Below, piece by piece: positions 5,509 through 63,956 of a stretch of DNA of 64,000 bases. Position numbers and translations under genes: made by a program. The notes under the pieces were generated by a model. That model was not told the DNA's origin. It saw nothing but the letters and a program-made list of their open reading frames with translations, and searched no databases. How positions within the stretch are numbered: the stretch's first letter is position 1; every line of letters starts with the position of its first letter. Source of the DNA: Candidatus Micrarchaeota archaeon (GTDB taxonomy: Archaea > Micrarchaeota > Micrarchaeia > Norongarragalinales > Norongarragalinaceae); NCBI GenBank assembly GCA_043822385.1, contig JBDRBT010000015.1, positions 749 through 64,748 on the forward strand, in the 5' to 3' direction.

Positions 5509-5793
5509 ATGAGTGGGCCAATAGAGTCTTTACAACTGCGTTTTCCTTACAATCTTGACGCCAGGCTTGATGTTAGCGTGTGGGCTGGTAGAGAACAAGA
5601 TGGTAAGGCTTTACCTTCGAACATTTCTTTGCGTTTGCAGGGTTTTGAAAAAGAAACCGTTTACTTGAATCCTGAAGACGCGTTGAAATTGTCGTCTATT
5701 TTACAGCATTACGCTGTTCAAGTATTGAAGCTTGATTCAGAACGCAGGTTGGCTGCTTGGAAGGAAAGACAAGAAAAAACGGATCAAGGATAA
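5509..5793 (+). CDS. Hypothetical protein
   Basis: 94-aa ORF in an otherwise empty gap; no recognisable motif. Confidence 0.3.
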   Translation: MSGPIESLQLRFPYNLDARLDVSVWAGREQDGKALPSNISLRLQGFEKETVYLNPEDALKLSSILQHYAVQVLKLDSERRLAAWKERQEKTDQG

Positions 5794-7085
5794 GCGCGGT
5801 TTATTGTACGCGGGAAGGGCGTGGCGTCTCGAATGTGGTCTAGTCCGCAAATCCAGCGAACTAAGCGTTCAGTGCCTAAACCAAAACCAGAGTGTTGAAC
5901 GCTACCGAATCTCCTTAAGTCTAAGTACCACGCGTAAGCCTTCAAGTCAGCATTTTCTTTCTTTAATTTTTCTATTAATTTGTTTACGTCTGTTTCTCTC
6001 TCGCTTCCGCCAATTAATTCCCCAAAACCCTTGGGCGCTAGCACGTCTACTGCATTTAGTGTTTTTCCGTCTTCGTTTTCCTTCATGTAAAATGCTTTAC
6101 TTCCTTTAGGCCAGTTAGTAATCATTAACGGCTTTTCTAAGTCTTTAGTTAATGCTTCTTCTTCAGGTACCCCAAAATCTTGTCCATGTTCTAGTTTAAT
6201 GCCGTTTTTCTCTAGTTTTTTTAACGCGTCAGCGTAAGTAAGCCTCTTGAATGGAGGGTTTATTTTTTTTAATTCTTCTATATCGCGGCCGAGTATTTTT
6301 AATTCAGCGCTTCTTTCTTTAACTACCGCTTTTACTACAAAACAAACCATTTCCTCTAGAAAAGCTAGTAGTTCTTCAAAAGACTGGTGTGCTTCTTCCC
6401 CTTCAATGTGCCAGTATTCAGTCAAGTGTTTTATAGTTCTTGATTTTTCAGCCCTGAATGAAGGCGTGATTGCGTAAACTTTTTCTAAACTAAAAACAAG
6501 TGCTTCCAAGTGAAGTTGAGCACTCTGGCTCAAAAACGCTTTCTCGCCAAAATAATTGAATGAAAACAAAGTAGAGCCGCCTTCAGCTGGGGAAGCAGTA
6601 ATTATTGGGGGTGTGGTTTCCCAGTATTTTTTTTTCTCGAAGAATTCCCTGAATGCTTTCAAAACCGTTGCTTTTACTTTCATTGCTGCAGTCAGGGTTT
6701 GAGAACGAATCCATAAGTGCCTTACGTCAAGCAAGAATTCCGTGCTCTGGTCTTTAGAAATAGGAAAGACTTCACTGAAGTGCAGTACGTCGAATTCGCT
6801 TGCTTGAATTTCCCAGCCAGTTGGAGCTCGAGAGTCTTTTTTTACTGTTCCAATAATTATTACTGCTGATTCTATTAGTGCTTTAGTAGAGTCTTCAAAG
6901 TGTTTTTCTTGAACATTGTCTTTTTTTACTGCAGTTTGAATAATTCCGGTTGAATCTCTTATTACTACGAAACTTATTCCACCTGAGCTACGCGTGCGGT
7001 AAATCCATCCCCTGATTTTAACTATTTTTCCTTCTTTTTTTCCTTCAAGAATTTCGCTTATTGGAGTGGGTTTCATAACAATCAA
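5784..7085 (-). CDS. asnS: Class IIb aminoacyl-tRNA synthetase, most likely asparaginyl-tRNA synthetase (AspRS not excluded)
   Basis: 433 aa. N-terminal OB fold, motif 2 FRAEKSRTIKHLTEYWHIEGE, motif 3 GFGLGTERLVRWICGLDHIRDATPFPR, C-terminal ..RAYP. Confidence 0.65.
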   Translation of the reverse strand: MIVMKPTPISEILEGKKEGKIVKIRGWIYRTRSSGGISFVVIRDSTGIIQTAVKKDNVQEKHFEDSTKALIESAVIIIGTVKKDSRAPTGWEIQASEFDVLHFSEVFPISKDQSTEFLLDVRHLWIRSQTLTAAMKVKATVLKAFREFFEKKKYWETTPPIITASPAEGGSTLFSFNYFGEKAFLSQSAQLHLEALVFSLEKVYAITPSFRAEKSRTIKHLTEYWHIEGEEAHQSFEELLAFLEEMVCFVVKAVVKERSAELKILGRDIEELKKINPPFKRLTYADALKKLEKNGIKLEHGQDFGVPEEEALTKDLEKPLMITNWPKGSKAFYMKENEDGKTLNAVDVLAPKGFGELIGGSERETDVNKLIEKLKKENADLKAYAWYLDLRRFGSVQHSGFGLGTERLVRWICGLDHIRDATPFPRTINRAYP

Positions 7086-41889: not shown

Positions 41890-41979
41890 TAGAAGTCTTA
41901 CAATGTTTCTTTTTAAAAACTTGAACTAGCAAAATAATTCGTTGCTATTAATGGGCTTGTAGCTCAGCCTGGTTTAGAG

Positions 41980-42000
41980 TCGCGTTAAAGCGCGCTGGAA
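41980..42000 (+). other. BHB-type tRNA intron at non-canonical position 24/25 (D-stem)
   Basis: H1 CTGGT(41969-73)/GCCAG(42002-06), H2 TTAG(41974-77)/CTGG(41995-98), bulges AGT(41978-80) and AAC(41999-42001), H3 CGCG/CGCG(41981-84/41991-94). Splicing restores D-stem GAGC. Confidence 0.65.
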
Positions 42001-42013
42001 CGCCAGTCTTATA

Positions 42014-42053
42014 CGACGCTCAAAGAAATTAAGTGCTTTGAGTCGGCTGAGAC
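42014..42053 (+). other. tRNA intron at canonical position 37/38
   Basis: Anticodon stem CCAGT(42003-07)/GCTGG(42055-59), H2 CTTA(42008-11)/TGAG(42048-51), bulges TAC and ACA. The inner helix is imperfect (relaxed BHB). Confidence 0.65.
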
Positions 42054-42121
42054 AGCTGGACGTCGAGGGTTCAAATCCCTCCAGGCCCACTCCTTTTATT
42101 CTGCTTTTTCGTTCTTTTTTC

Positions 42122-61212: not shown

Positions 61213-61752
61213 CTCTTTCTCCAATATTTGTAAGCAGGTTTTACGTCTGTAAAACTTGTTTTTAATTTTTTAATGCTATAGTATCCCGGCAAGCCAGAGA
61301 ATTAACTAATTTCTATGAAGGGCATTGCATTTTTCAACTATAGCGAGCGTGGAAGCTCGAACAAAGATTAAGCGTTTTTAAACAGCGTTATCTCATTCGA
61401 GTTTGACTGATGAAGGAAAAACCCGCAAATTTAAAAAAAGGTAGCAATTAAAGCTAGTTCTTGCGATCTACTGTACTTTCCCTCCTCGTTTTTGAGGGGG
61501 GGAGTCGACACCAGTTGATCCTGCTGGAGGATACTGCTATCGGATTTCGACTAAGCCATGCAAGTTTAGTGGTTCGAGCTTCGAACCACGGCGAATGGCT
61601 CAGTAACACGTAGTCAATCTAACTTTCGGACGGGAATAACCTCGGGAAACTGAGGGTAATGCCCGGCGGGACAAGAATTCTGGAATGAGTCTTGTTTGAA
61701 TGGAGCCAGTGAATTGCAATTGGTTTCGCCGAAAGATGAGACTGCGGTTGAT

Positions 61753-61785
<33 letters not shown>

Positions 61786-62258
61786 ATTGATCAGTAGGGG
61801 CTATGTGAGTAGGAGCCCCGAGACGGGCACTGAGACAAGGGCCCGAGCCCTATGGGGTGCAGCAGGCGCGAAACTTCCGCAATGCGCGAAAGCGTGACGG
61901 AGGGAATCCGAGTGCAGCGCGAAAGCGTTGCTTTTGCTTGGCTTGAATAGCCAGGCGAATAAGTTCTGGGTAAATCCTGTGCCAGCCGCCGCGGTAACAC
62001 AGGTAGAGCTAGTGGTATCCACGAATATTGAGCTTAAAGCGTCCGTAGCCGGCTAAGTAAATTTTCTGTGAAATCTATCAGCTTAACTGATAGGCGTGCA
62101 GGAAAGACTGCTTGGCTTGAGAGTGGGGGAGGTCAAGGGTACTCTAGGGGGAGGAGTAAAATCCTGTAATCCTTAGAGGACCATCTGTGGCGAAAGCGCT
62201 TGACCAAAACACGTCTGACGGTGAGGGACGAAGGCTAGGGGAGCGAATCGGATTAGAT

Positions 62259-62439
62259 TTGCTTTTGAAATAAACTTTTAAAAAAGTTTAATCAAAAAAT
62301 TATTTTTAGCTTCGCATGTTGACGAGGACAATTTAAAAACTTTTCTTCGCTGAAAACTACGAAAAGTTAATTAAATGTTCTTTGAATGCGTTGAATTAAT
62401 TTTTCTGATTTTGATTTTTTGTTTTCAAGAGCACTAAAT
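62259..62439 (+). other. BHB-type (archaeal splicing endonuclease) intron in 16S rRNA at E. coli position ~793
   Basis: Splits GGATTAGAT/ACCC. H1 TCGG(62248-51)/CCGA(62442-45), H2 TTAG(62253-56)/CTAA(62434-37), bulges ATT(62257-59) and ATA(62438-40), 11-bp H3 62260-70/62423-33. 181 nt, AT-rich, no ORF. Confidence 0.8.
62271..62300 (+). repeat. AT-rich hairpin + ATCAAA module, copy 1 (inside the 16S BHB intron)
   Basis: TAAACTTTT-aa-AAAAGTTTA followed by ATCAAAAAA. Confidence 0.6.
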
Positions 62440-62554
62440 ACCCGAGTAGTCCTAGCAGTAAATGATGCAAACTAGGCGTTACAACAACTACGAGTTGTTG
62501 TAGTGCCGTAGGGAAACCGTTTAGTTTGCCGCTTGGGGAGTACGGTCGCAAGAT

Positions 62555-62597
<43 letters not shown>

Positions 62598-63138
62598 TGC
62601 TGCGGTTTAATTGGATTCAACGCCGGGAAGCTCACCCAGAGAGACAGCAGGATGAAGCCCAAGCTAAAGACTTTGGCTAACAAGCTGAGAAGTGTTGCAT
62701 GGCCAGCGTCAGTTCGTGCCGTGAGGTGTCAAGTTAAGTCTTGCAACGAACGAGATCTCTATCCACTGTTGCTAGTTGAGAAGAAATTTTTAACGCACTC
62801 TGTGGAGACTGCCTGCGCTAAGCAGGAGGAAGGAAGAGGCGACGCTAGGTCTGTATGGCCTGAATCTCTGGGGCCACACGTGGCATACAATGGTAAAGAC
62901 AATGAGTTCCGACACCGAAAGGTGAAGGCAATCTCCTAAACTTTACCTCAGTTCGGATTGGGGGCTGAAACTCGTCCCCATGAAGCTGGAATCCCTAGTA
63001 ATCGCGTGTCATCATCGCGCGGTGAATATGTCCCCGCTCCTTGCACACACCGCCCGTCAAGCCATCCAAGCGAGGTTTTAGTGAGGCTTCTCCTCCGGGA
63101 GAATTCGAGCTAGGGCTTCGTGAGGGGGGTTAAGTCGT

Positions 63139-63438
63139 AATTTTGTTGCGACCCACAATCGCGAGGTTGTGGAAAAAATTTGCTATATGCTGGAATCACC
63201 CGTGCATCTTGAATTGGTAACGATTCAAGTGGGGTAAATCAGCAGGGAAGTCGTCACCGGAATAGACGCTGGAAAGTGTTTATTTAGTGATTGACCCCTC
63301 AGAGACTACACGCAGATCTCTCAGAAACTTTTAGGAAAAGTTTCATCAAAAAAAGTTTTTTGCTAAAGCTTTTTCGACAAAAAGGTTTTTGAGATGGTGA
63401 TATAGTCCACGCTGCATGGCGACATGTGGATTAACGTG
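63139..63438 (+). ncRNA. Candidate group I self-splicing intron in 16S rRNA at E. coli position ~1498
   Basis: Splits AAGTCGT/AACAAGG. 5' exon ends in U, paired with G63148. Guide TGTT-GCGAC (63144-52) pairs with both exons (P10+P1). P2-P9 drawable; R-like TCAGAGACTACA (63299-310), S-like GATATAGTCC (63399-408), terminal G63438. Confidence 0.75.
63324..63354 (+). repeat. AT-rich hairpin + ATCAAA module, copy 2 (inside the P8 extension of the group I-like intron)
   Basis: GAAACTTTT-agg-AAAAGTTTC followed by ATCAAAAAAA. Confidence 0.6.
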
Positions 63439-63615
63439 AACAAGGTAACCGTAGGGGAACCTGCGGTTAGATCACCTCCAATTGTTCGAAAGAACTAACT
63501 TTGGACAAAAACTACCCTTTAAGTAGCTTTTGTAAATAACCTTTTTTTTAAAAAACGCAAATGGGTTTTCCTTCATCGAAATTTTTTTTCGCGCCACTAT
63601 TGCGCTAGCGCTTTC

Positions 63616-63725
63616 GGGCTCGTGGCGCAGTGGTAGCGCGCCTGATTTGCACAAGCTTTTGGAAAAAGAAAATCTGAGAGTTTCAGAAAATCAGGAGGCC
63701 GGGGGTTCAAATCCCCCCGAGTCCA
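63616..63725 (+). tRNA. tRNA-Ala (anticodon UGC) in the 16S-23S spacer, with a canonical 37/38 intron
   Basis: GGGCTCG/CGAGTCC acceptor with G3:U70, anticodon arm CCTGA-TTTGCA[intron]A-TCAGG, T arm GGGGG-TTCAAAT-CCCCC. No encoded CCA. Confidence 0.9.
63652..63689 (+). other. Canonical BHB tRNA intron (38 nt)
   Basis: H2 TTTG(63646-49)/CAGA(63684-87), bulges CAC and AAA, inner helix AAGCTTTT/GAGAGTTT with G.U pairs. Confidence 0.8.
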
Positions 63726-63760
63726 TTAAACTTTCTTTTTAAGAAAGTTTAATCAAAGAA
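63726..63760 (+). repeat. AT-rich hairpin + ATCAAA module, copy 3 (spacer directly after tRNA-Ala)
   Basis: TTAAACTTTCTT-ttt-AAGAAAGTTTAA overlapping ATCAAAGAA. Confidence 0.6.
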
Positions 63761-63956
63761 GAAAAAAAAAATTTAAAAACAAGTTTTTAGTAAAAAAGAA
63801 TTTTTTTACTTTCTTTTCGCTTTCAAAAGCGAGGGAAGGAAAAAGCCGTTTTGGATAGAACGACGTTCTGTAGTGAGCGTTGGAGTCTTAAGCGAGTTGC
63901 TGACAATTTTCATGAAGCGAGTAATAAGTTTTTCGGCTTTTTATACCGGGAATAGG

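What the first reader, a model, noticed from the sequence alone, without database searches (positions are those of the whole stretch)
63139..63438. Group I-like self-splicing intron inside an archaeal 16S rRNA gene
Seen in sequence: a 300-nt insertion interrupts the universally conserved AAGUCGU/AACAAGGUA linker. I could not draw a BHB motif at any of the three equivalent junction registers, but a complete group I architecture can be drawn.
- P1: the 5' exon ends in U63138, which pairs with G63148 (GTCGT 63134-38 with GCGAC 63148-52).
- P10: the adjacent TGTT (63144-47) pairs with the first four 3'-exon bases AACA (63439-42).
- P2: 63153-58 / 63167-72.
- P3: ATTTGC 63178-83 / GCAGAT 63312-17.
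- P4: TGCTG 63188-92 / CAGCA 63240-44, sitting in P-like (TGCTGGAAT) and Q-like (AAATCAGCAGG) contexts.
- P5/P5a: 63198-201 / 63232-35 and 63208-14 / 63223-29.
- P7: GACTA 63304-08 / TAGTC 63403-07, embedded in R-like TCAGAGACTACA and S-like GATATAGTCC.
- P8: TCTCA 63319-23 / TGAGA 63390-94.
- P9: hairpin 63408-28.
- The intron ends in G63438 (omega-G).
Established knowledge: these are the defining features of group I introns. Archaeal rRNA introns described so far are, to my knowledge, spliced by the BHB endonuclease, and group I introns are regarded as absent or extremely rare in Archaea.
Inference: this is a ribozyme-type intron in an archaeal SSU gene, possibly acquired horizontally. No homing endonuclease ORF is present.
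Basis: partly seen in the sequence, partly recalled or inferred. Interest (0 to 1): 0.9.

Follow-up and report, generated by a model that had tools for sequence, protein, structure and literature searches.

The report
Group I intron in archaeal 16S
The 300-base insertion is a genuine group I (self-splicing type) intron in the 16S rRNA gene of a Micrarchaeota archaeon, but introns of this family at this exact site were described in 2018, so it is a new example of a known kind rather than a surprise.

Summary
Window 63139-63438 (300 nt) interrupts the archaeal 16S gene between U1498 and A1499 (AAGUCGU|AACAAGG). Rfam Intron_gpI matches end to end at 66.1 bits (gathering score 50, E=1.5e-14). In an alignment of 37 introns from this site that was not fitted to any structure, 90.5% of cells pair against about 38% when partners are slid, and 36 pairs show changes on both sides. 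No BHB motif can form at any of the three junction registers. No endonuclease ORF is present.

The novelty premise is out of date. Nawrocki, Jones and Eddy (2018) reported 39 archaeal group I introns. Three are IB4-type at SSU/1498, and two of those are in Micrarchaeota. One of them (IB4.19) is among the closest relatives of this intron. The host is a Micrarchaeota MAG. The window intron is a short form: it lacks the LAGLIDADG endonuclease gene that 53 of 55 long relatives carry in P8.

The same 16S gene also holds a canonical BHB intron (62259-62439), a co-occurrence that is also already published. Verdict: real and correctly identified, a new member of a known kind, low interest.

The parts
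61508..63479 (+). Archaeal 16S rRNA gene made of three exons (61508-62258, 62440-63138, 63439-~63479) and two introns
   Evidence: RF01959 scores 1360.6 bits. Rfam's alignment stops at 63184 because the model's 3' end is forced into the intron. The true 3' exon AACAAGGTAACCGTAGGGGAACCTGCGGTTAGATCACCTCC is read directly from the sequence.
63139..63438 (+). Group I intron (IB4-like), 300 nt, inserted after E. coli U1498
   Evidence: RF00028 scores 66.1 bits, E=1.5e-14, full model length. Covariation supports the structure. Homologous to published intron IB4.19, which is locus L058.
63134..63152 (+). P1: 5' exon GUCGU plus intron AAU (63134-41) paired with the internal guide sequence GUUGCGAC (63145-52). 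The 5' splice site follows U63138, which pairs with G63148.
   Evidence: The U-G pair and the five exon pairs are invariant in 37 of 37 family members.
63144..63147 (+). P10 strand of the guide sequence (UGUU). It pairs with the first four 3'-exon bases AACA (63439-63442) and overlaps the P1 extension, so the two pairings are mutually exclusive.
   Evidence: GTT of the guide sequence is invariant or more than 90% conserved in the family.
63153..63172 (+). P2 hairpin, 8 bp, with a GCGA (GNRA) tetraloop at 63161-64
   Evidence: All 8 pairs show changes on both sides in the family (helix 2).
63178..63183 (+). P3 5' strand AUUUGC, paired with GCAGAU 63312-63317
   Evidence: Four of 6 pairs show changes on both sides, and 96.8% of cells are paired (helix 3). 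The window's own U63181-A63314 is a compensated change from the family's G-C.
63188..63244 (+). P4 (UGCUGG 63188-93 / UCAGCA 63239-44) enclosing P5 (63198-201 / 63232-35) and the P5a hairpin (63208-14 / 63223-29)
   Evidence: P5/P5a fold, z = -3.1. P4 is 96.4% paired in the family.
63245..63298 (+). P6 (GGG 63245-47 / CCC 63296-98 and GUC 63250-52 / GAC 63293-95) with an extended P6a hairpin
   Evidence: 96-98% paired; z = -5.1.
63300..63311 (+). J6/7, the P7 5' strand (GACUA 63304-08) and J7/3: the conserved CAGAGACUACAC core element
   Evidence: Matches the Rfam consensus UCAaAGACUAAAcG. P7 pairs are invariant in the family (helix 10).
63319..63394 (+). P8: basal 5 bp UCUCA/UGAGA plus a 66-nt AU-rich extension folding into one long hairpin. 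Relatives carry their LAGLIDADG gene at this position.
   Evidence: Four of the 5 basal pairs covary (helix 11). Fold z = -4.0. The relatives' insertion maps between intron positions ~185 and ~241. Their ORFs are LAGLIDADG endonucleases.
63395..63407 (+). J8/7 and the P7 3' strand: UGGUGAUAUAGUC (UAGUC 63403-07)
   Evidence: GAUAUAGUC is invariant in the family, though it was the search pattern. It also matches the Rfam consensus.
63408..63438 (+). P9.0 (ACG 63409-11 / CGU 63435-37), P9 hairpin (63412-18 / 63423-29, GCGA tetraloop) and the terminal omega-G 63438
   Evidence: P9.0 is 100% paired, with 2 of 3 pairs changed on both sides. P9 has 6 of 7 pairs changed on both sides (helices 12-13). 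The terminal G is present in every extracted relative that could be aligned.
62259..62439 (+). Separate BHB (endonuclease-spliced) intron of 181 nt in the helix-24 '790' loop of the same 16S gene
   Evidence: The central helix UUAG 62253-56 / CUAA 62434-37 forms 4 of 4 pairs, with 3-nt bulges AUU and AUA, inner helix 6 of 6 and outer helix 4 of 6. This happens only in the register that restores GGAUUAGAU|ACCC.

Best explanation
Window 63139-63438 is a functional group I intron of the IB4-like family that occupies site 1498 of small-subunit rRNA. It sits in the only 16S gene seen on this contig, which belongs to a Micrarchaeota (DPANN) archaeon.

Inferred mechanism: this is the standard two-step group I pathway. 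The guide sequence GUUGCGAC (63145-52) pairs with the end of the 5' exon to form P1 and presents the U63138-G63148 wobble. An external guanosine bound in the P7 pocket attacks the bond after U63138. The intron-internal part of P1 (AAU/GUU) then gives way to P10 (UGUU with the 3' exon AACA), while P9.0 positions the terminal G63438 in the same pocket. The freed U63138 3'-OH attacks after G63438, which yields GUCGU-AACAAGG and mature 16S.

The intron is a short form without the LAGLIDADG homing endonuclease that most long relatives encode in P8. It is therefore probably no longer mobile by itself and is inherited with the rRNA gene. Because site 1498 lies in the decoding centre, splicing must be efficient for the ribosome to work.

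Shown here: sequence, architecture, homology and covariation. Inferred: catalysis, the order of steps and the loss of mobility.
For: - **Rfam:** the RF00028 match covers the full model at 66.1 bits against a gathering score of 50, E=1.5e-14.
- **Helices:** all of them are present exactly as drawn.
- **Junction register:** only one of the three sequence-equivalent registers gives both a U at the end of the 5' exon and a G at the end of the intron.
- **Covariation:** in a MAFFT alignment of 37 SSU/1498 introns not fitted to any structure, 90.5% of 2376 cells pair, against 35-45% when partners are slid by 1-3 columns. Thirty-six of 65 pairs have changes on both sides. None of 500 shuffles reaches any observed measure. 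P2, P3, P8, P9 and P9.0 all covary.
- **Intact core:** the window agrees with 123 of 135 columns that are at least 90% conserved among the others, the same level as its archaeal relatives L115 and L074 (0.90-0.91). Several of its departures are compensated pairs, for example 63181/63314.
- **Link to a published intron:** my junction calls for L058 reproduce the published coordinates of IB4.19 (MNVH01000001.1, 12830-13564, SSU/1498). The window intron matches L058 at 79% over 110 nt and 88% over 51 nt, and matches L011 and L073 at 76% over about 186 nt.
- **Archaeal clade:** it clusters in an all-archaeal clade of seven.
- **Archaeal host:** RF01959 scores 1360 bits. The 16S is 84-90% identical to Micrarchaeota 16S genes. 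The AsnRS at 5784-7085 is 100% identical to NCBI MFH1780093.1 from Candidatus Micrarchaeota.
- **Not a BHB intron:** no BHB forms at the junctions, while the same scan finds clean BHBs at the other 16S intron and the tRNA-Ala intron.
Against: - No experiment or transcript data exist. Self-splicing, and even splicing in vivo, is inferred.
- No endonuclease or maturase is encoded. Splicing in the cell may need host proteins.
- The P8 extension is unusual, AU-rich filler.
- The subgroup label IB4 rests on homology to an intron that others classified. I did not run the GISSD subgroup models.
- P1, P4, P6 and P7 are almost invariant in the family, so covariation neither supports nor contradicts them.
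- The family alignment was seeded with a pattern containing GATATAGTC and the 3' exon, so conservation of those bases is partly by construction.
Confidence: 0.9

Rival explanations
1. It is a group I-derived insertion that has lost catalytic self-sufficiency. It is removed only with the help of host proteins, or it sits in a non-functional rRNA gene copy.
For: There is no intron-encoded protein. It departs from the family at 12 of 135 highly conserved columns. The P8 extension is AU-rich. No activity data exist.
Against: Every core helix is intact, and the departures are largely compensated pairs. The archaeal siblings show the same level of departure. The exons form a complete, high-scoring 16S with an intact 3' end. 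The gene sits in a normal operon with processing stems and the spacer tRNA-Ala.
Confidence: 0.07
2. It is a BHB intron cut by the archaeal tRNA-splicing endonuclease, like classical archaeal rRNA introns.
For: The organism clearly uses BHB splicing. BHB introns are present in the same 16S gene and in tRNA-Ala.
Against: At the three registers compatible with the exon sequence, only 2, 2 and 1 of the 4 central pairs form. The same scan gives 4 of 4 plus flanking helices for both positive controls. A complete, covarying group I core explains the sequence.
Confidence: 0.01
3. It is an assembly chimera or contamination: a bacterial or organellar intron-bearing rRNA fragment was joined to an archaeal contig.
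For: The same intron family is abundant in bacterial 16S genes.
Against: The intron lies inside a gene that scores as archaeal SSU on both sides of it. Its nearest relatives are introns in archaeal 16S genes. GC content is uniform at 37-44% along the window. Intron-bearing tRNAs occur at 41.9 kb and 63.6 kb. The protein at the far end is a Micrarchaeota protein.
Confidence: 0.02

Closest known systems
IB4.19 and IB4.26, group I introns at SSU/1498 in Candidatus Micrarchaeota (Nawrocki, Jones and Eddy 2018, PMC6125680)
   Same: Same host phylum, same insertion site and same guide sequence GUUGCGAC. They share the same P3, P4, P6, P7 and P9 core and the same 3' end ...ACGUG. IB4.19 (L058) is 79-88% identical to the window over the alignable core.
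   Different: They are 735 and 743 nt long. IB4.19 (L058) carries a LAGLIDADG_3 endonuclease ORF in P8; IB4.26's sequence was not retrieved here. The window intron is 300 nt, with a 66-nt AU-rich P8 extension and no ORF. It comes from a different, later-deposited MAG.
IB4.8, a 293-nt group I intron at SSU/1498 in Nanohaloarchaeota (same paper)
   Same: Same site, archaeal host and a similar short length.
   Different: Different phylum. I did not retrieve its sequence, so similarity to the window was not measured.
Insertion sequences at position 1498 of 16S in CPR bacteria (J Bacteriol 2024, PMC11270868)
   Same: Same 16S position. They are group I type and are spread by LAGLIDADG homing.
   Different: The hosts are bacterial and the endonucleases are LAGLIDADG_2. 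The window intron has no endonuclease and belongs to an archaeal sub-clade.
SSU/1498 introns in non-CPR bacterial MAGs found here (Solirubrobacterales, Acidimicrobiales, Dormibacteraeota, Omnitrophota and others)
   Same: Same site, guide sequence, core sequence and structure. Rfam Intron_gpI hits lie inside bacterial SSU genes.
   Different: P2 has a GUAA loop rather than GCGA, and the P5 region carries a longer, differently built extension. Similarity to the window is restricted to core segments.
Rfam RF00028 Intron_gpI
   Same: Full-length match above the gathering score, with consensus J6/7-P7 and J8/7-P7' elements.
   Different: RF00028 is a generic model. It does not assign a subgroup and does not model P7 as a pair.

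Membership tests
Group I intron | Scores above the curated threshold of the family covariance model (RF00028) | tested here: met
   66.1 bits against a gathering score of 50, E=1.5e-14, model positions 1-253 of 253.
Group I intron | P1 formed by the 5' exon and an internal guide sequence, with a U-G wobble at the 5' splice site | tested here: met
   GUCGU/GCGAC with U63138-G63148. The U-G pair is present in 37 of 37 family members.
Group I intron | Terminal guanosine (omega-G) at the 3' end, positioned by P9.0 | tested here: met
   G63438 is the last intron base. All extracted relatives end in G. P9.0 is 100% paired, with compensatory changes at 2 of 3 pairs.
Group I intron | Conserved core of P3-P9 including the P3/P7 pseudoknot and the P4-P6 domain, supported by covariation | tested here: met
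   90.5% of cells pair against about 38% when slid. Thirty-six pairs have changes on both sides. None of 500 shuffles reaches the observed values. P3, P8 and P9 covary. P4, P6 and P7 are conserved but nearly invariant, so they are uninformative.
Group I intron | P10 between the guide sequence and the 3' exon | tested here: met
   UGUU 63144-47 pairs with AACA 63439-42. Both sides are invariant in the family, so no covariation test is possible.
Group I intron | Guanosine-dependent two-step transesterification (self-splicing) | not testable with these tools
   This needs in vitro transcription with GTP/Mg2+, or transcript data.
Subgroup IB4 | Best match to the GISSD IB4 subgroup model | not tested
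   GISSD models were not available. The assignment rests on homology to IB4.19 (L058), which PMC6125680 classified as IB4.
Archaeal BHB intron | Two 3-nt bulges on opposite strands separated by a 4-bp helix, with both splice sites in the bulges | tested here: not met
   2, 2 and 1 of 4 central pairs form at the three possible registers. The positive controls score 4 of 4.
Mobile (homing) group I intron | Intron-encoded homing endonuclease | tested here: not met
   The longest ORF overlapping the intron is 33 aa. Of 55 long relatives, 53 have a stop-free frame of at least 150 aa; the four representatives scanned against Pfam are LAGLIDADG_3 (three) or LAGLIDADG_2 (one).

The most novel reading that the evidence does not exclude
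The hairpin-plus-tail motif AAACUUU-loop-AAAGUUU[A/C]AUCAAA[A/G]AA occurs exactly three times in the 64 kb window, and all three copies lie in discarded parts of the rRNA transcript. One is in the P8 loop of the group I intron (63325-63353), one in the BHB intron (62272-62299) and one in the spacer after tRNA-Ala (63729-63760). It could be a functional element shared by three differently processed RNAs: a binding site for a common chaperone or processing factor, or a miniature mobile hairpin that colonises dispensable loops. It might have replaced the endonuclease gene in P8.
Probability: 0.08. Interest if true: 0.4.

Novelty: new member of a known kind. Interest (0 to 1): 0.2.

Why it matters
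It adds one more endonuclease-free example to the published set of archaeal group I introns, at a site already reported for this phylum. That confirms the earlier finding but does not change understanding.

There are two practical points:
- The intron splits the binding site of the widely used 1492R primer (AAGTCGT|AACAAGGTAACC). Organisms like this one will therefore be missed or under-counted in amplicon surveys that use that primer (inference).
- Covariance-model annotation places the 16S 3' end inside the intron, at 63184 instead of about 63479. Automated annotation of such genes will be wrong.

One 16S gene holding a ribozyme intron and a BHB intron side by side is a neat illustration of the two archaeal splicing routes. 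It too is already described.

Tried and rejected
- **First BHB scan:** it used the wrong topology (both bulges on the outer side) and a wrong insertion length (183 instead of 181 nt). I discarded it and redid it correctly with positive controls.
- **Rfam scan of 12 loci:** it failed internally, so I repeated it on 6 loci.
- **Exact-sequence look-ups of three window ORFs and of P0001:** they found no contig. The source was identified through a homology search and a cluster look-up instead.
- **Metagenome scan with the archaeal-type junction pattern:** it returned 120 loci but no closer relative than the GTDB Micrarchaeota genomes.
- **Identity values:** they are inflated by gap-gap columns. I used only the ranking and the tree topology.
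- **Pfam scan of ten more ORFs:** it gave only domain-neutral housekeeping families and did not help assign the host domain.
- **Literature search for 16S group I introns in Actinobacteria MAGs:** it found nothing relevant. That is not proof that they are unreported.
- **RNase III-type intervening sequence, excised without ligation:** considered and rejected. The insertion has a complete, covarying group I core, and cutting without ligation would detach helix 45 and the anti-Shine-Dalgarno end.

Full report
**Observation**

The region was read directly and every claim was checked base by base.
- The 16S sequence AAGUCGU|AACAAGGUA is interrupted by exactly 300 nt, at 63139-63438.
- P1, P10, P2, P3, P4, P5, P5a, P7, P8 and the P9 hairpin are all present at the coordinates given, with only Watson-Crick or G-U pairs.
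- The three sequence-equivalent junction registers exist because the intron begins with AA and the 3' exon begins with AA. Only the register with the 5' exon ending at U63138 gives both a U before the 5' splice site and a G (63438) as the last intron base.
- The intron is 41% G+C against 52% for the exons.
- It holds no ORF longer than 33 aa.

**Is it a group I intron?**

Rfam Intron_gpI (RF00028) matches 63129-63429 over the whole model (1-253) at 66.1 bits, above the gathering score of 50, with E=1.5e-14 for the 64 kb window (same hit).

For independent evidence I collected homologues.
- From 94 of them I could extract an insertion between AAGTCGT and AACAAGGTA.
- Nearly all begin with AA, followed within about 10 nt by GTTGCGACC, and end in ...CGTG or ...CACG. 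They therefore share the window's guide sequence and terminal G.
- A plain MAFFT alignment of the window with 36 non-redundant short members was not fitted to any structure.
- I projected the window's helices onto that alignment and counted pairs. The results:
  - 90.5% of 2376 cells are standard pairs, against 35-45% when 3' partners are slid by 1-3 columns.
  - 36 of 65 pairs have changes on both sides.
  - None of 500 column shuffles reaches any observed measure.
  - P2 (8 of 8 pairs), P3 (4 of 6), P8 (4 of 5), P9 (6 of 7) and a P9.0 next to the terminal G (2 of 3; 100% paired) all covary.
  - P1, P4, P6 and P7 are essentially invariant, which neither supports nor contradicts them.
- The window intron agrees with 123 of 135 columns that are at least 90% conserved in the others. 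That is the same level as its archaeal siblings, and several departures are compensated pairs such as U63181-A63314. It does not look decayed.

**Is it a BHB intron instead?**

No. After correcting an initial topology error, a scan for the canonical arrangement gives only 2, 2 and 1 of 4 central pairs at the three possible registers. The canonical arrangement is two 3-nt bulges on opposite strands separated by a 4-bp helix, with cleavage after the second bulge base.

The same scan gives perfect central helices plus flanking helices for two positive controls:
- the 38-nt intron of the spacer tRNA-Ala (63652-63689);
- the other insertion in this 16S gene (62259-62439, 181 nt).

The second control forms a BHB only in the register that restores GGAUUAGAU|ACCC. 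This 16S gene therefore carries one BHB intron and one group I intron.

**Host**

- The gene scores 1360.6 bits on the archaeal SSU model.
- Its exons are 84.1% identical over 1454 nt to the 16S of a Micrarchaeota MAG (L090), and 87-90% identical over shorter stretches to L098, L073 and L058.
- The window has uniform G+C of 37-44%.
- It encodes an archaeal-type threonine-tRNA ligase.
- It holds further intron-bearing tRNA genes.
- The Asn-tRNA ligase at 5784-7085, about 55 kb from the rRNA operon, is 100% identical to NCBI protein MFH1780093.1, 'MAG: Candidatus Micrarchaeota archaeon', on a 67,459-bp contig. The next hits at 60-78% identity are mostly labelled Micrarchaeota where a name is given.

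The contig reads as archaeal at both ends. Read-level confirmation was not possible.

**What is already known**

- 39 archaeal group I introns (27 IB4, 12 IA3), all in rRNA genes and mostly in DPANN lineages;
- three at SSU/1498: IB4.8 in Nanohaloarchaeota (293 nt), and IB4.19 and IB4.26 in Micrarchaeota (735 and 743 nt);
- LAGLIDADG genes in 21 of the 39;

Locus L058 is MNVH01000001.1. My junction calls place its intron at contig positions 12830-13564, exactly the published IB4.19 coordinates. That validates both my junction rule and the site numbering.

The window intron matches L058 at 79% over 110 nt and 88% over 51 nt. It matches Micrarchaeota loci L011 and L073 at about 76% over about 186 nt plus 83-87% over about 60 nt. 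A neighbour-joining tree of intron cores puts it in an all-archaeal clade of seven:
- the window intron itself;
- L011, L073, L058 and L090 (Micrarchaeota);
- L088 (ANME-1 Methanophagaceae);
- L074 (Norongarragalinales).

Site 1498 is also a reported group I / LAGLIDADG insertion site in CPR bacteria (PMC11270868).

**How this copy differs**

Family lengths are bimodal: 216-413 nt in 39 members and 545-835 nt in 55. Of the 55 long members, 53 have a stop-free frame of at least 150 aa on the intron strand. Four representatives were scanned against Pfam. Three are LAGLIDADG_3, including L058 and the ANME-1 copy, and one is LAGLIDADG_2.

BLAST shows the extra DNA in the relatives lies between window-intron positions about 185 and 241, which is inside P8. 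In the window, P8 instead carries a 66-nt AU-rich extension that folds into one long hairpin (z = -4.0). The window intron is thus a short, endonuclease-free form. Whether it lost the gene or never had it is not resolved.

**Mechanism**

This part is inferred from the anatomy and the established group I pathway.
1. GUUGCGAC pairs with the exon end to form P1 with the U63138-G63148 wobble.
2. An exogenous guanosine bound in P7 cleaves after U63138.
3. The intron-internal AAU/GUU extension of P1 is exchanged for P10 (UGUU with AACA), using the same guide bases.
4. P9.0 delivers G63438 to the G site.
5. Exon ligation gives GUCGUAACAAGG.

The GNRA tetraloops in L2 and L9 (GCGA) are typical long-range docking elements. 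Their receptors were not mapped. Nothing here demonstrates catalysis.

**Verdict**

The finding is real and correctly identified, but it is a new member of a known kind. The same intron family, the same insertion site, the same host phylum and the co-occurrence with a BHB intron were all published in 2018. Interest is low.

Noticed in passing
window 62259-62439: There is a second insertion in the same 16S gene: 181 nt, AT-rich, in the helix-24 '790' loop (GGAUUAGAU|ACCC). It forms a canonical bulge-helix-bulge motif only in the register that restores the exon (central helix UUAG/CUAA, bulges AUU and AUA). It is therefore a BHB intron sitting beside the group I intron (fold).
   Followed up: yes
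window 63616-63725 and 41953-42089: Rfam finds two intron-bearing tRNA genes that ARAGORN missed. The spacer tRNA-Ala(UGC) has a 38-nt BHB intron at 63652-63689. The 137-nt tRNA at 41953-42089 appears to hold two BHB introns, at about 41980-42000 and 42014-42053.
   Followed up: partly
window 62272-62299, 63325-63353, 63729-63760: A hairpin-plus-tail motif, AAACTTT-loop-AAAGTTT[A/C]ATCAAA[A/G]AA, occurs three times in 64 kb, all on the + strand and all in non-mature parts of the rRNA operon: the BHB intron, the group I P8 loop and the spacer after tRNA-Ala. The stem of the spacer copy carries a compensated change (AAACTTTC/GAAAGTTT). The sequence is AT-rich and the pattern was derived from these same copies, so chance is not excluded.
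   Followed up: partly
window 61409-61473 with 63479-63577; 61251-61271 with 63767-63787: Long-range inverted repeats flank the 16S gene (24 nt at 79% and 15 nt at 93% complementary). A further 21-nt, 95% complementary pair encloses 16S plus tRNA-Ala. These look like archaeal pre-rRNA processing stems.
   Followed up: no
window 63139-63184: The archaeal SSU covariance model ends its alignment at 63184, inside the group I intron, instead of at the true 3' end near 63479. Automated annotation of intron-bearing 16S genes like this one will misplace the 3' end. The intron also splits the 1492R primer site.
   Followed up: partly
loci L001-L119 (e.g. L006:2375-2728, L013:4647-4983, L026:1082-1864, L061:1555-2324): The SSU/1498 group I intron family is abundant in non-CPR bacterial MAGs: Solirubrobacterales, Acidimicrobiales, Dormibacteraeota, Omnitrophota, Gemmatimonadales and others. 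Bacterial SSU and Intron_gpI hits were confirmed for five loci. PMC11270868 states that self-splicing 16S introns were known only from giant sulfur bacteria and CPR. One literature search found no report for these lineages.
   Followed up: partly
L035:4798-5072 (Nanoarchaeota MAG JAHIVW010000004.1): This archaeal host carries a SSU/1498 intron of the 'bacterial' subtype. It agrees with 97% of the bacterial-dominated conserved columns and has the long P5 extension, and it falls outside the archaeal intron clade. This hints at transfer between domains.
   Followed up: no
L006:5556-5808; L037:4352-6014; L048: L006, a Solirubrobacterales MAG, has a second group I intron in its 23S gene. In L037 about 1.6 kb separates the end of the SSU model hit from the 3' exon, which suggests a much larger or composite insertion. 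L048, an 'uncultured archaeon', matched the pattern but gave no Rfam rRNA hit at all.
   Followed up: no
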